This document shows, one piece after another, positions 4,758-10,609 of a stretch of DNA of 64,000 nucleotides. The notes under the pieces are model-generated. The model had not been told where the DNA came from. It ran no database searches and saw only the letters and a program-made list of their open reading frames with translations. The DNA is taken from assembly GCF_009914755.1 (NCBI RefSeq), contig NC_060926.1. One strand, given 5' to 3'. The number at the start of each line of letters is the position of its first letter. Positions within the stretch are counted from its first letter, which is position 1. Position numbers and translations under genes: made by a program. The DNA is from the human T2T-CHM13v2.0 reference genome, Homo sapiens.

Positions 4758-6123
4758 GGGGGCAGGTTGGTGCTAGTAACAGGAACATGTTGATGCAATT
4801 AGTGCTTATCCAGACTGTGTTCAATGGGAAGGTGTTGGATGGTGGGGGGCGTCAGGCTTACAAACCACCTGAACTTAACTCTTGAAGCCCCGTCTCCTCC
4901 CCAGCCCACTGCCCACCACACTATGGCCAATGAATTCTCGCCAGGTGGAATGGACTCTAGCCAGCTTGGAGAAGCCTGTGTGCAAAGCCATTCTCAACTT
5001 CCCAAGGTACCTCCATCGCCCCCACCCCGAGTGTTTCTGGGTTGCCTAAACATTTTGAATGCTCGTGGCATCAAACCCTGGTCCCGCCTTGTCCACACTG
5101 CCTGATACACAACACCTGCGGATGCCACTCTGTGTTTTTGGTGATTGACAGCCTGCAGAGTGTGTTTCCACACCTGACTGACACACAGTGCCCGGGGCCT
5201 CCACAGCCTGATGCCCTCCCTGTGTGGGGTGCTCCCTGTCGTCACTGGACAGGTGGAGTGGGACATGTATCCCGGGTCCTGGAGAAGCCTGGCTCTCTTG
5301 TTGCCTTCCTCCTGGGAGTCCCCTTCCCACGGCAGCCTCTGACACAGCTGGACCCGGCTACATGGCCCACCCTGGTCTAGGGGCCTTTCTTTTGTGTTCT
5401 TTTTTCTCCTTCTTTCTTTGCAGGTGCATGTGTCTGAATTCCGAGAAGTTTCCTATGTGTCGGGGTCTAGGCTCCCTCCCCACCCTGGGCCCCTCCCGGG
5501 TGTCTGGTTTGACGTGGCCTCCCAGGACTGACACCGATGTTCCAGGCAGGGGAAACAATGGCAGAGGCCTCGTTGGCCGTACAGACGCCGGCATCCCCAC
5601 CCACAGTGGGTTTTGATGGACTCTGGGCGCTAGTGAGGTGTCTGTCTGTGTTCCTCACTGTAGCACATGGTCAGTGTGGCCCACTGTGGGGCGGGGAGAG
5701 TGGGGAGGCCCTGCCTATGTGGGAGCAGGCTATGTGGGCGCTCTCTGCACTTTCTCCTCCCTTTTGCCAGGAACCGAAAACTGCTCTGAAAAATAGTCTA
5801 TGTAAAAAAGAAAAGGTTCTGCAGCCTATGTGCATGTCGCTCCTCAGCCTGCAGCTGCGTCCGCACGCAGTGGAAGGTGAGCCTGGCCTCTTCATGGACG
5901 ACCCACTCAAGACTCAGGGCACTGGCCTCCCACCGTGTCCATACCCGAGGCTGCACTGGAGCCGCTAAATCCTGTGTCCCTCTCCCCATGTCCTTACTCC
6001 TCTCTTTCCTCTCCCCCTCCTTTTTGATTAGCCCTGTTTTAGAGGCCAGATGTAGGCCTTGGGTTATCCTTACTGATATTCACCTTGTAAAATGAGACTA
6101 ACATATGTATTACACTAATTGTA

Positions 6124-6125
<2 letters not shown>

Positions 6126-6170
<45 letters not shown>
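6126..6170. repeat. Compound (TC)n(TG)n microsatellite
   Basis: Seen directly in the sequence. Confidence 0.95.
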
Positions 6171-6553
6171 TTTAAATCAACCACAAATAGCAGCAATGTC
6201 TTTGTCTGGGTTATTAATCAGGAAGAGAAGTCTTCTTCTATGAGCTACAGAAACATACCTTTTATGAACTACAGAAATTGGCCAGGCACCTCTGCTGACA
6301 CCTGGACTAGCTGTCTACACCACCACACACCACATCTGGGCAAGAGCCCTTGGTGTGCTGCCATAAGGCTGCTGGCTGTGAGCCCACAGAGGAGCCGGGT
6401 GGATGGTACTGGGGCACAAGAGCATCGAGGGTCCCTTTTGTCCAGATGCTGCAGACCACTGTGGGCCACGTGTCCTACAGCTGACACTGCCTCGGCCCCG
6501 TTCTCCCAGGTCCTCACTCTAACTCAGCCCTCAGGGGCCAGGTCACCAAGCAG

Positions 6554-7298
6554 AGGGGAGGAAAGCAGAACCTAAGAATGTCCAGGGGCAGAGAGGGCCC
6601 TCGACCCAGATCCAGGGGGCCGCTGAAACATTCTCTGCTCCAGCCTCCTTCCCTGCGCCCTGCCCTGGCCTTCCCTTGCCTGTCTAATGAGAGGTCTGGA
6701 GGGCGGGGGCCATTCTCACTGGCAAGGCGGATACAGGAAGAAGCAGGATGGCCTTCAGTTGCTTCATCTTCTCACACTGGGATATTCCCAGCAGACCCGC
6801 TGGCCCAGGAATGGCCTTGCCCCTGTGTCTTGTGGAGGGCACATCCTCCCACAGGGTGGGGCATGCGGAGCCGATGCTTCCCCAGAGGCCAGCTGGGGGG
6901 CCACGCGACGGTCTTGGGGCCTGACCTAGCGTGAAATCCAGAGGTCAGACCTCTGGTTCTCTTGCATTTTTGTTGACATTCAGCACTCTGAGTGTCACTT
7001 TTCTCATCTGTAAAATGGGCACGTTAATTCCTACCTCATCAGAGCTTTCATGCAATTAAAAGAGAAAATATGTGTAAAACGCCTTAGCATGTGCCTGACT
7101 CCAGGGCGGAGGTCAGAAAAAGCCCTTCCCGCTCCGCTGTCCCCTGGTTTACTATTATACAGACTCAAGGAGACTGGTACCTGGGGGGTGGCGGGGGTGG
7201 TAGGCAACAGCCCTGCCTTATAACTTCTTTCACCTGTGAAATGTTTATTGCATGTTCATCATTTGTCAAATATTTATCAAATATTTATACTTTTTATA
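6554..7298 (+). repeat. Left arm of long inverted repeat (745 bp); contains a MIR fragment at about 6990-7095
   Basis: Reverse complement of 8863-9607 with 13 substitutions and no indels (compared by eye in 10-mers); MIR core ttctcatctgtaaaatggg...ctacctca. Confidence 0.97.
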
Positions 7299-8862
7299 AT
7301 ATGTATATTTATATATATATTCATATATATTTATATATTATATATTCATATATCATAAATATATATATTATATATATTCATATATTATATATCTATATAT
7401 TTATTCATATATTATATATCTATATATTCATATATATCTATATATTTTATATTCGTATATTATATATCTATATATTATATATTCGTATATTATATATCTA
7501 TATATTATATATTCGTATATTATATATCTATATATTATGTATTCATATATATCTGTATATTATATATTCATATATATCTATATATTATATATATTCATAT
7601 ATATTATAAATTATATTCATATAGTATATATCTATTATAAATGTATATTCATATAGTATATATCTATATATTATAAATATATATTCATATATTATATATT
7701 TATATATTATATATTCATATAGATCTATATATTATATATATTCATATATGAATATATATATTATATGTATATATATTATAAATATATTTATATAGTATAG
7801 ATATTATATAGTATATGCATATTTATATTATAAATAATTTACATAGTATATGTATATTTATAAATTATATATATTTACATATTACATGTATATTTATATA
7901 TTATAAATACATATTTACATATTATAAATATATTTATATATTATGAATATAATTTATATATTATTACATATTTACATATATGCATAGTTATATATTATAA
8001 ATATGCATTTATGTAAATATATATTTATAAATATATAAATATGCATATAATATGTAAATATATAATATATAAATTATATTCATAATACATAAATATATAT
8101 TTACAATATGTAAATATCTGATATGTAAATATGTATTTATAATATATAAATATACATATAATATGTAAATATATAAATATACATATACTATGTAAATATA
8201 TGTTATATATACATATACTATATAAATATAGAATATATAAATATACATATACTATATAAATATGTAATATATAAATATATACTATATAAATATACATATA
8301 CTATATAAATGTATTTATAATATATAAATATACATATACTATATAAATTCATATATGAATATATAATATATAAATATATATAATATATGAATATATACTC
8401 ATATATAAATATATATGAATATATATTTATAATATATAGATATAATATGAATATATATTTATAATATATAGATATATATTATATGAATATATATTTATAA
8501 TATATAGATATATACCATATGAATATATATTATACACTATATGAATATATATTTATAATATATAGATATATACTATATGAATATATAATATATATACTCT
8601 ATGAATATATAATATATACTATATGAATATATTATATACTGTATGAATATATAATATATAGATGTATACTATATGAATATATAATATATAGATATATATA
8701 CTATATGAATATATATAATATATAGATATATACTATATGAATATATATGATATATAGATATATACTATATGAATATATAATATATAGATATATATTTATG
8801 ATATATGAATATCATATATAAATATATATGATATATGAATATATATCATATATAAATATACA
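7299..8862. repeat. AT-rich (TA)n-derived low-complexity core, itself quasi-palindromic
   Basis: Almost all A/T. The left part uses tattcata/tatcta/tttacat motifs; the right part uses their reverse complements tatgaata/tagata/atgtaaa. Confidence 0.95.
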
Positions 8863-9607
8863 TATAAAAAGTATAAATATTTGATAAATATTTGACAAAT
8901 GATGAACATGCAATAAACATTTCACAGGTGAAAGAAGTTATAAGGCAGGGCTGTTGCCTACCACCCCCGCCACCCCCCAGGTACCAGTCTCCTTGAGTCT
9001 GTATAATAGTAAACCAGGGGACAGCGGAGCGGGAAGGGCTTTTTCTGATCTCTGCCCTGGAGTCAGGCACATGCTAAGGCGTTTTACACATACTTTCTCT
9101 TTTAACTGCATCAAAGCTCTGATGAGGTAGGAATTAACGTGCCCATTTTACAGATGAGAAAAGTGACACTCAGAGTGCTGAATGTCAACAAAAATGCAAG
9201 AGAACCAGAGGTCTGACCTCTGGATTTCACGCTAGGTCAGGCCCCAAGACCGTCACGTGGCCCCCCAGCTGGCCTCTGGGGAAGCATCGGCTCCGCATGC
9301 CCCACCCTGTGGGAGGATGTGCCCTCCACAAGACACAGGGGCAAGGCCATTCCTGGGCCAGCGGGTCTGCTGGGAATATCCCAGTGTGAGAAGATGAAGC
9401 AACTGAAGGCCATCCTGCTTCTTCCTGTATCCGCCTTGCCAGTGAGAATGGCCCCCGCCCTCCAGACCTCTCATTAGACAGGCAAGGGAAGGCCAGGGCA
9501 GGGCGCAGGGAAGGAGGCTGGAGCAGAGGACGCTTCAGCGGCCCCCTGGATCTGGGTCGAGGGTCCTCTCTGCCCCTGGAGGTTTTTAGGTTCTGCTTTC
9601 CTCCCCT
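8863..9607 (-). repeat. Right arm of long inverted repeat (745 bp)
   Basis: Reverse complement of 6554-7298; the ORF track also shows the same peptides on opposite strands (6687+ vs 9253-, 7091+ vs 8846-). Confidence 0.97.
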
Positions 9608-10609
9608 AGTAGACTATATATAGTAGACTATATATACTATATATATATAGTCTACAAGTAAATAGTCATTTACTTGTAGATACATTTCTTAAAAAGGAAA
9701 CGCTTCCCCTCACCCCTCACTCATTATTCTATTAGTTACTGTTTGTAAAATAAATCCTCCAAACACAATGATCACAAAATGGATTTGAATTTACAGTTGT
9801 GAAACAAATCGGAGACTCATTTTCCCTGCGTGCTTCCACGGTGCTGTGAGTGAGGCGAATGCCACCTGCCTGAAGTGAGAAATGACAAGCATTTCCCTGT
9901 AGTTGCATTGTTTACCCTCCCGAGATTAACTTGGTAACAGGACTTCTCTCTAGGAAGAATCCATGAGGAATCAGGCCCTTCTGTTATTTCACCTTCTCCT
10001 GCAAATGCCATGAACCATATTTTGCTGCTCTTGAGCCACAGCCCGTGTTCTGCAGCTCACACGGCACAGTCAGGCCCTCCAGCTTCCTGCCGTCAACGTA
10101 CCAGCACAAGCATCCTGTCCTGCTTGCCTTTGGTTAATTAAAAGCAAATACCTCTTTGCAGTGCAGATAGCTGCTCTGTCAGTCACACTGGGACACGGTG
10201 GCCTCACCGCACACAATTTTTAATTGATTGACTCCCACTCCTGAGACCTCTGGGTCTTTCATTAATCAGTTATATACACAAGAAAGGTGAAGTTTAATGA
10301 GGTGTGTGTCAGGCACTCTGACATGAAGTGGCCCAGGTGGGTGAATGTGGTGCTCCACATTTTAATAATTTTTGACACCCAGCATTTTGCAGTCCACACA
10401 ATGCCAGTTTGTGATAATTCTAATAAACGCAAAGATCGCTTATCTGGTATCAAGACAAAATCTCTCAGCAGCAGGAACAAAGACTTTCCTAGAGTGAGAA
10501 CAGAAAGATCACATCCTTGCTCTGTCCTAGATTCACACCAGGAGCTACTAAGCTGTTTGGTGAGTCAGAAAATGGATACTTAATTCAGCCATTCAGCCCT
10601 ATTTCAGTG

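What the first reader, a model, noticed from the sequence alone, without database searches (positions are those of the whole stretch)
6554..9607. 3.05-kb intronic palindrome: 745-bp arms around a self-symmetric AT-rich core (PATRR-like)
Seen: 6554-7298 and 8863-9607 are reverse complements (732/745 identical, no indels). The 1.56-kb AT-rich centre is also mirror-polarised: tattcata/tatcta/tttacat on the left become tatgaata/tagata/atgtaaa on the right, switching at about 7980-8050. The whole 3 kb can therefore fold back. The arms are non-transposon GC-rich sequence plus an old MIR, so this is a recent inverted duplication and not a TIR element. Established: palindromic AT-rich repeats (e.g. 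11q23/22q11 PATRRs) and long (TA)n tracts extrude cruciforms and cause translocations and fragility. Inference: this is a candidate cruciform, fragile or recurrent micro-inversion site inside IQCA1; I do not recognise it as one of the classic PATRRs.
Basis: partly seen in the sequence, partly recalled or inferred. Interest (0 to 1): 0.85.

Follow-up and report, generated by a model that had tools for sequence, protein, structure and literature searches.

The report
AT-rich-centred 3-kb quasi-palindrome, DRC11 intron
A real 3-kb inverted duplication sits in an intron of the cilia and sperm gene DRC11 (IQCA1), built like the AT-rich palindromes that break chromosomes but too imperfect at its centre to count as one, and nothing yet shows that it is unstable.

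Summary
Arms 6554-7298 and 8863-9607 are reverse complements at 732 of 745 positions with no indels. This sequence has only these two copies in T2T-CHM13.

The 1,564-bp core (9% GC) is mirror-polarised, with the flip near 8010-8050. Its plain self-complementarity (about 78-80%) is no better than the match of one half to unrelated AT-rich tracts. Three things show the mirror relation is real: strand polarity, block order, and G/C landmarks (35 of 62 matched, against 0-26 of 62 in 20 comparators).

Best reading: a fold-back inverted duplication, millions of years old, that copied 745 bp of unique intron plus the adjoining half of a TA-rich minisatellite-like tract. The centre has since decayed by small indels.

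It shares the PATRR layout but fails the "nearly perfect, several hundred bp" criterion. It has no long (TA)n run (longest is 5 units).

Modelled full cruciform extrusion is costly (+647 kcal/mol for the core). Single-strand hairpins (z = -21.6) and a 745-bp dsRNA stem in the pre-mRNA are plausible.

Fragility, inversion and polymorphism remain untested. I rate it a new member of a known kind, of moderate interest.

The parts
6554..7298 (.). Left arm of the inverted duplication. It is 53% GC, single-copy sequence, and continuous in composition with the GC-rich left flank.
   Evidence: GC profile.
8863..9607 (.). Right arm, the reverse complement of the left arm (732 of 745, no indels).
6576..6632 (.). 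Cluster of 7 of the 13 arm mismatches within 57 bp, next to the outer junction. The mirror positions are 9529-9585.
   Evidence: The permutation p for a span this small is 0.001.
7049..7112 (.). Second cluster of 5 arm mismatches. The mirror positions are 9049-9112.
6986..7099 (.). Old interspersed-repeat fragment inside the arm (MIR by recall). The mirror copy is at 9062-9175.
   Evidence: Arm positions 433-546 hit 6 other loci at 75-87%. Alignment to two of them.
7299..8027 (+). Left half of the AT-rich core. It has an outer block rich in TATTCATA/TATCTA and an inner block rich in TTTACAT.
8028..8862 (-). Right half of the core. It carries the same motif blocks in reverse complement and mirrored order, and is 106 bp longer than the left half.
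8018..8037 (.). 20-nt perfect palindrome at the polarity switch. The predicted hairpin tip of the whole fold is at 8010-8015.
7733..7760 (.). 28-nt perfect palindrome around TTCATATATGAA at the boundary between the outer and inner blocks of the left half. Its mirror landmark, the same motif, is at 8347-8360.
   Evidence: The mirror landmark is read.
9607..9679 (.). AT-rich right flank. It holds a 14-bp unit repeated 3.3 times (9607-9651), a 16-nt perfect palindrome (9636-9651), and a hairpin with a 12-bp stem and 4-nt loop (9652-9679). It may be a remnant of the pre-duplication AT tract.
   Evidence: sequence. The remnant reading is inference.

Best explanation
This is a genuine single-locus quasi-palindrome made by one fold-back (template-switch) inverted duplication.

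Proposed origin: a TA-rich, minisatellite-like tract lay next to 745 bp of unique intronic sequence. Because such a tract is self-complementary, a broken or stalled 3' end could pair back on itself. It then copied back through the tract and the 745 bp, and rejoined at 9608. The result has the layout arm, tract, tract', arm'.

Since then the arms have diverged by 1.7%. The AT-rich centre, which mutates much faster by slippage, has decayed to about 78% with more than 50 small indels.

It encodes nothing. Its consequences are structural. On single-stranded DNA (lagging-strand template, resected ends) it can form long hairpins. In the DRC11 pre-mRNA the arms can form a 745-bp near-perfect double-stranded stem. 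Spontaneous extrusion of the whole 3 kb as a cruciform from duplex DNA is unlikely because the centre is imperfect.

Shown: the anatomy, the uniqueness of the arms, the mirror polarity and the predicted folds. Inferred: the fold-back mechanism, which arm is the original, the age, and any instability.
For: Arms:
- 732 of 745 complementary, no indels.
- Only two copies of the arm in 3.1 Gb of CHM13.

Core:
- It is the only one of 21 long AT-rich tracts whose halves correlate better in reverse complement (0.92) than directly (0.29).
- It is the only one with a single mid-point polarity flip. Of the 20 comparators, 14 have one polarity throughout and 6 are mixed.
- 35 of 62 G/C landmarks of the left half align to the reverse complement of the right half, against 0-26 of 62 for the 20 comparators in their best orientation. 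The alignment score is 775 against 606-745.
- The alignment is collinear and shares the TTCATATATGAA landmark in both halves.

Direction of the event:
- The left arm is continuous with a 60% GC flank, whereas the right arm abuts an AT-rich remnant.

The layout recurs:
- 4 of the 20 comparator loci have inverted arms of 134 bp or more at 95% or more directly abutting the tract. They form 2 independent families among the 18 independent loci.
- At C4:14.90 Mb the two arms are 95% alike but at most 83% like other copies of that repeat. That indicates a local duplication, not two separate insertions.

Folds:
- The central 1,000 nt fold at -251.5 kcal/mol, against -139.7 +/- 5.2 for 20 shuffles (z = -21.55).
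- In the fold of 3,254 nt, 729 of the 745 arm positions pair in register, and 587 of 752 left-core bases pair with the right core.

Published model:
- A fold-back model for human inverted duplications with a spacer is in print (PMC3907307, abstract read).
Against: - No outgroup or second haplotype could be examined, so the event, its direction and its age are not observed directly.
- Plain identity of the core halves is at background level. The mirror relation could in principle be two arrays of one motif family in opposite orientation.
- There is no microhomology at the outer junction.
- The 13 mismatches are strongly clustered (p = 0.001 and 6e-5). Simple clock-like divergence does not predict this.
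- Polarising 4 of the 5 sites in 7049-7112 with two old repeat copies puts changes on both arms, but those alignments are poor.
- The locus was not found in a published hg19 list of 197 long near-perfect inverted pairs in RefSeq pre-mRNAs, where it should qualify. hg19 may therefore represent it differently. The hg19 position I searched for is recalled; it fits the hg18 interval containing IQCA1 seen.
Confidence: 0.7

Rival explanations
1. An ancient palindrome whose arms are kept nearly identical by arm-to-arm gene conversion. On this view the true age is shown by the roughly 8-12% divergence inside the two mismatch clusters and by the decayed core. The long perfect stretches would be converted tracts.
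For: - Mismatches are patchy. Seven lie in 57 bp and five in 64 bp, separated by perfect runs of 273, 142 and 186 bp.
- The core is only about 78% alike.
- Changes appear on both arms in the second cluster (weak evidence).
Against: - 3 of the 13 mismatches are at CpG, and 11 of 13 are transitions, as in ordinary neutral decay at about 1-2%.
- AT-rich arrays change fast by slippage, so the state of the core is not a clock. In the acrocentric paralogues the spacing between conserved arms ranges from 617 to 1,625 bp.
- Clustered changes next to a junction also fit error-prone repair synthesis (recalled from the literature, not read here).
Confidence: 0.2
2. An active PATRR-type site. It would extrude a cruciform in vivo, break, and cause translocations, deletions or recurrent inversion of the core.
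For: - It has the PATRR layout: an AT-rich centre, non-AT-rich ends and an AT-rich flank (criteria from PMC4255720).
- It lies in an intron of an axonemal gene. The review passages read report that PATRR22 lies in a testis-expressed gene and that transcription is proposed to drive extrusion.
- A 3.4-kb AT-dinucleotide-rich sequence created a fragile site when integrated (PMC6765107, abstract). Quasi-palindromic AT-rich repeats are reported as fork-collapse sites (passage).
- In single-stranded DNA, inverted repeats up to 30 kb apart and at least 75% alike drive fold-backs in yeast (PMC10164571, abstract and Introduction).
Against: - The centre is not nearly perfect. It is 77.5-79% alike with 53 gap runs.
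- Modelled extrusion costs +647 kcal/mol for the core, against about +10 for the short perfect palindromes.
- In yeast, lengthening a spacer from 12 to 20 bp lowers Alu inverted-repeat recombination about 40-fold, and instability is lost at 75% homology.
- The longest (TA)n is 5 units.
- The longest perfectly identical arm stretch is 273 bp.
- The core (1.56 kb) is below the 3-kb class listed in PMC6765107.
- No paper links IQCA1 with palindrome, inversion or A-to-I editing, or PATRR with this part of 2q37.
Confidence: 0.12
3. Its main consequence is at the RNA level. In the DRC11 pre-mRNA (minus strand) the arms would form one of the longer near-perfect intramolecular double-stranded RNAs in a human gene, a substrate for ADAR editing and possibly for Dicer.
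For: - The stem is 745 bp with 732 Watson-Crick pairs, 5 G.U, 6 A.C and 2 other mismatches on the minus strand.
- It meets the published criteria (over 300 bp, over 96% identity) of a class of 197 human structures, some of them heavily edited (PMC7006430, passages and Table S8).
Against: - It is intronic, so any such RNA is nuclear and short-lived.
- In that study only 20 of the 197 structures were expressed above FPKM 0.01 on both arms.
- This locus is not in their table.
- No paper pairs IQCA1 with A-to-I.
- Rfam finds nothing.
Confidence: 0.1
4. An assembly artefact, such as a chimeric fold-back read, or alternatively a mobile element with long terminal inverted repeats.
For: - Palindromes can arise from library chimeras.
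- The locus is absent from an hg19-based list.
Against: - The arms differ at 13 sites, and the core halves differ by 106 bp and 53 gap runs. A fold-back chimera would be exact.
- There are only two arm copies genome-wide and no target-site duplication.
Confidence: 0.04

Closest known systems
PATRRs (palindromic AT-rich repeats: PATRR11, 22, 8, 17 and others)
   Same: It has an AT-rich centre flanked by relatively non-AT-rich ends, with a further AT-rich stretch on one flank. It is intronic, in a gene of the sperm and cilium axoneme. It is predicted to form a hairpin.
   Different: PATRRs are nearly perfect palindromes of about 200-600 bp, and PATRR8 arms are over 98% alike. Here the whole structure is 3,054 bp, only the GC-rich arms are 98% alike, and the AT-rich centre is about 78% alike with many indels. 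No translocation is known at this site. No chromosome 2 member appears in the review passages read.
Long, nearly perfect inverted duplicated sequences in human pre-mRNAs (Barak et al. 2020, Table S8: 197 structures over 300 bp and over 96% identity)
   Same: A 745-bp, 98.3% inverted pair lying inside one pre-mRNA meets their criteria. The rows I read include pairs of similar or larger size and similar spacing, for example 1,138 bp with 582 bp between the arms, and 898 bp with 679 bp between.
   Different: This locus is not in their hg19 table. Their catalogue does not consider what lies between the arms, whereas here the spacer is itself a mirror-polarised AT-rich tract.
AT-dinucleotide-rich flexibility sequences of common fragile sites (FRA16C, FRA16D) and AT-rich minisatellites of rare fragile sites
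   Same: The core is a very AT-rich, imperfectly repetitive tract (9% GC; periods of about 15-19 bp by TRF) that folds into branched or hairpin structures when single-stranded.
   Different: The core is 1.56 kb. The tested fragment was 3.4 kb, and the genome list covers tracts of 3 kb or more. There is no long perfect (TA)n. Whether the site lies in a fragile band was not established.
Fold-back inverted duplications with a spacer (Hermetz et al. 2014)
   Same: Inverted and non-inverted copies are separated by a spacer, with short inverted sequences at the fold-back point (abstract).
   Different: Those cases are megabase-scale, pathogenic, de novo and terminal. This one is 0.75 kb, interstitial and, by inference, fixed or old.

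Membership tests
PATRR | A nearly perfect palindrome several hundred base pairs long | tested here: not met
   The criterion is from PMC4255720. Here the structure is 3,054 bp. The arms match at 98%, but the central 1,564 bp are 77.5-79% self-complementary with 53 gap runs.
PATRR | [quoted passage not shown] | tested here: met
   The core is 9% GC and the arms are 53% GC, rising to about 60% in their outer parts.
PATRR | Another AT-rich region flanking the palindrome | tested here: met
   The 9600-9799 window is 30.5% GC. It holds a 14-bp AT-rich unit repeated 3.3 times and two short palindromes at 9607-9679. This is on the right side only.
PATRR | A breakpoint of constitutional translocations, or hypervariable alleles | not testable with these tools
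   No haplotype or breakpoint data are available here. Full-text searches for IQCA1 with palindrome, PATRR with 2q37, and IQCA1 with inversion gave nothing relevant.
Long near-perfect inverted duplicated sequence in a pre-mRNA (Barak 2020) | Both arms inside one pre-mRNA, longer than 300 bp, and more than 96% identical | tested here: met
   745 bp at 98.3%. Both arms lie in one DRC11 intron according to the supplied annotation.
Long AT-dinucleotide-rich sequence associated with fragile sites (Irony-Tur Sinai 2019) | An AT-dinucleotide-rich tract of 3,000 bp or more | tested here: not met
   The core is 1,564 bp. By a 100-bp, under-20%-GC criterion the tract is 1,727 bp. The TwistFlex program was not run.
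Expanded (TA)n microsatellite (WRN-dependent breakage) | A long uninterrupted (TA)n run | tested here: not met
   The longest run is 5 units (10 nt) at 7310. TRF period 2 gives only 64% matches. The length needed for breakage is recalled, not read.
DNA transposon or MITE with terminal inverted repeats | Multiple genomic copies and a target-site duplication | tested here: not met
   There are two arm copies only, both at this locus. The flanking 10-mers are not alike.

The most novel reading that the evidence does not exclude
Long TA-rich minisatellite-like tracts may recurrently seed fold-back duplication of their unique flanks, producing a scattered class of PATRR-like quasi-palindromes.

This locus would be the cleanest and youngest example in a gene. 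Three independent cases were seen among 19 independent AT-rich tracts sampled: this one, C4:14.90 Mb, and an acrocentric family whose cores range from 617 to 1,625 bp.

On this reading the site is length- or orientation-polymorphic in people, is poorly represented in the clone-based references, and breaks under replication stress or in the male germ line.
Probability: 0.15. Interest if true: 0.6.

Novelty: new member of a known kind. Interest (0 to 1): 0.35.

Why it matters
If the site proved unstable, it would add a chromosome 2 member to the short list of AT-rich palindromes that break human chromosomes. It would sit in a gene expressed where such breaks are thought to arise. It would also show that complete long-read genomes still hide such sites.

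As it stands, it is a well-defined candidate and a worked example. It shows that near-background identity in AT-rich sequence can mask or mimic symmetry, so polarity and G/C landmarks, checked against other AT-rich tracts, are the right test.

The comparator set also suggests that inverted flank duplications around AT-rich tracts are not rare. That is worth a genome-wide count.

Tried and rejected
- Extension of the arms: none found. The ungapped check is; the word-7 blastn of 2-kb flanks gave no hit.
- Rfam on 6000-10200, both strands: 0 matches.
- Identity as proof of core symmetry: rejected. The left half matched 40 scored places of 4,374 candidates elsewhere at 72-82%.
The class estimate therefore rests on 20 loci chosen for likeness to this core, which is a biased sample.
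- Polarising arm mismatches with two old repeat copies. Two sites (7055, 7068) look derived on the right arm and two (7108, 7112) on the left. The copies are only about 75% alike and one site is a CpG, so this decides nothing.
- The locus in Barak et al. Table S8. I searched number prefixes 2363-2366 and 2368-2375 and read the rows from 97.4% to 98.9% identity. It was not found. The hg19 position is recalled; it fits the hg18 interval seen.
- Supplement of PMC6765107: the held text was 109 characters, so its tables S1 and S3 could not be seen. Whether 2q37 carries a listed AT-rich tract or fragile site stays open.
- Papers PMC2818517 (PATRR17 in primates) and PMC6407864 (fork collapse at structure-forming repeats) are not held.
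- A supercoiling balance for extrusion was considered but left out, because it would rest on recalled constants.
Full report
**Observation**

6554-7298 and 8863-9607 are reverse complements over 745 nt, with 1,564 nt between them. There are 13 mismatches and no indels. The pairing stops sharply at both outer ends. No other inverted repeat of 150 nt or more lies within 20 kb anywhere in the 64-kb window.

A search of the window's own 3.1-Gb genome found this arm sequence only at these two places. In addition there were six weak hits (75-87%, 45-111 bp) to arm positions 433-546. That is what an old interspersed repeat gives. The name MIR is my recollection and was not tested.

The flanking 10-mers are unlike each other, so there is no target-site duplication. 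This is therefore a local inverted duplication of unique sequence, not a mobile element.

**The centre**

The core 7299-8862 is 9% GC. Its longest pure (TA)n run is five units.

- The named motifs flip between the halves. TATTCATA/TATGAATA is 13:2 on the left and 1:17 on the right; GTATA/TATAC is 14:0 and 1:24.
- The 6-mer spectra of the halves correlate 0.92 in reverse complement and 0.23 directly.
- The polarity changes once, between 150-nt windows starting at 7892 and 7967. A 20-nt perfect palindrome lies at 8018-8037.

One result argues for caution. The left half of the core aligns to many other AT-rich loci of the genome at 72-82% (4,374 candidates, 40 scored). This is as good as its 77% match to the reverse complement of its own right half.

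I therefore fetched 20 of those loci as controls.
- Identity does not separate the mirror partner (80%) from the controls (78-82%).
- G/C landmarks do. 35 of 62 match for the partner, against 0-26 of 62 for the controls. The alignment score is 775 against 606-745.
- None of the 20 controls has halves that agree better in reverse complement than directly.
- Fourteen controls have one polarity throughout and six are mixed. None shows the single mid-point flip.
- The alignment of the two halves is collinear. Both carry the same TTCATATATGAA palindrome at the boundary between an outer and an inner motif block. There are 124 gap columns in the left half and 18 in the right.

The centre is thus a decayed mirror image, not a near-perfect one.

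**Origin (inference)**

The left arm continues a flank of about 60% GC. The right arm abuts a short AT-rich stretch with a 14-bp repeat and two small hairpins.

The simplest history is this. An AT-rich tract lay between the present left arm and 9608. A 3' end in that self-complementary tract folded back, copied the tract and 745 bp of flank, and rejoined at 9608. Fold-back with a spacer is an established model for human inverted duplications (PMC3907307, abstract read).

The arm divergence of 1.7% corresponds, with recalled substitution rates of 0.5-1 x 10^-9 per site per year, to roughly 9-17 million years. Without the outer cluster the estimate is 4-9 million years. So 'recent' means around or before the split between humans and the African apes.

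The mismatches are clustered. Seven lie in 57 bp next to the outer junction and five in 64 bp (permutation p = 0.001 and 6e-5). This fits either error-prone synthesis at the event or an older palindrome partly homogenised by gene conversion. I could not decide between these. The two old repeat copies used as an outgroup were too diverged.

**The layout recurs**

Four of the 20 control loci have inverted arms directly abutting their AT-rich tract. They belong to two independent families.
- At C4:14.90 Mb the arms are 426 bp and 95% alike, but at most 83% like other copies of that repeat. The pair therefore arose by local duplication.
- In an acrocentric family, 134-bp arms (95-98% alike) occur as inverted pairs at four loci, with 617 to 1,625 bp between them. 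They occur singly at two other loci.

The sample was chosen for likeness to this core, so the frequency is only indicative.

**What it can do**

As a single strand the central 1,000 nt fold into one long hairpin at -251.5 kcal/mol. Twenty shuffles gave -139.7 +/- 5.2 (z = -21.55).

In a fold of 3,254 nt, 729 of the 745 arm positions pair in register.

As a duplex, exchanging the double helix for two hairpins costs:
- about +10 kcal/mol for the 20- and 28-nt perfect palindromes;
- +647 kcal/mol for the core;
- +765 kcal/mol for the whole structure.
These figures come from a nearest-neighbour model with no supercoiling term.

Yeast work read in the Introduction of PMC10164571 states three things:
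- Lengthening a spacer from 12 to 20 bp lowers Alu inverted-repeat recombination about 40-fold.
- Instability is lost at 75% homology.
- In single-stranded DNA, repeats up to 30 kb apart and at least 75% alike still fold back.

Whole-structure cruciform extrusion is therefore unlikely. Hairpins at stalled forks or resected ends are plausible.

A 3.4-kb AT-dinucleotide-rich sequence can by itself create a fragile site (PMC6765107, abstract). That paper's genome list covers tracts of 3 kb or more, about twice the length of this core.

On the minus strand, which is the sense strand of DRC11, the arms give a 745-bp RNA stem with 5 G.U, 6 A.C and 2 other mismatches.

**Comparison with what is known**

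Translocation-related PATRRs share three features (PMC4255720, passage):
- a nearly perfect palindrome of several hundred bp;
- an AT-rich centre with non-AT-rich ends;
- a flanking AT-rich region.

This locus meets the second and third and fails the first. It resembles a PATRR in layout but should not be filed as one.

The review passages I read list PATRRs on chromosomes 11, 22, 8, 17, 3, 4, 1 and 9 (PMC7999016).

The locus does meet the criteria of the 197 long near-perfect inverted pairs in human pre-mRNAs (PMC7006430). Several of those are as long and as closely spaced, so its size is not exceptional.

It is not in that hg19 table. This may mean that hg19 represents the locus differently. 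The hg19 position I searched is recalled.

Full-text searches for IQCA1 with palindrome, inversion or A-to-I, and for PATRR with 2q37, found nothing on this site.

**Verdict**

Its interpretation as a cruciform or fragile site is possible but unsupported, and in part disfavoured by the imperfect centre.

I rate it a new member of a known kind, with interest 0.35. The decisive data are other human haplotypes, ape orthologues and break maps, none of which were available here.

Noticed in passing
window 9607-9679: Directly outside the right arm lie a 14-bp AT-rich unit repeated 3.3 times, a 16-nt perfect palindrome (9636-9651), and a hairpin with a 12-bp stem and 4-nt loop (9652-9679). This may be the remnant of the AT tract that existed before the duplication.
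   Followed up: partly
window 6150-6735 and 6191-6537: According to the supplied annotation, the last exon of lncRNA LOC105373945 ends at 6537, 17 bp before the left arm. A RefSeq enhancer (6150-6735) covers the outer 182 bp of the left arm. The right arm therefore carries an inverted second copy of that part at 9426-9607.
   Followed up: no
L017 (G000:C4:14899700-14909600), arms 1888-2311 and 6116-6537: This is a second case of the same layout. Arms of 426 bp, 95.3% alike, abut a 3.9-kb AT-rich tract of 4.8% GC. The arms are a copy of an interspersed repeat, and are much closer to each other than to any other copy (at most 83%).
   Followed up: partly
L011, L013, L016 (G000:C21:8.007 Mb, C13:10.98 Mb, C22:6.458 Mb) and C22:11.223 Mb: This is a family in acrocentric short-arm duplications. 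Inverted 134-bp arms (95-98% alike) enclose one-polarity AT-rich arrays. The distance between the arms is 617, 1,173, 1,523 and 1,625 bp in the four paralogues. Single arms lie at C20:26.23 Mb and C3:75.99 Mb.
   Followed up: partly
L001-L020: Long AT-rich tracts of 0.9-7 kb and 3-11% GC, all 78-82% alike to this core half in a semi-global alignment, are scattered over many chromosomes. Most are tandem arrays of a single polarity.
   Followed up: partly
window 6126-6154: A perfect (TC) dinucleotide repeat of 14.5 units lies 400 bp upstream of the left arm.
   Followed up: no
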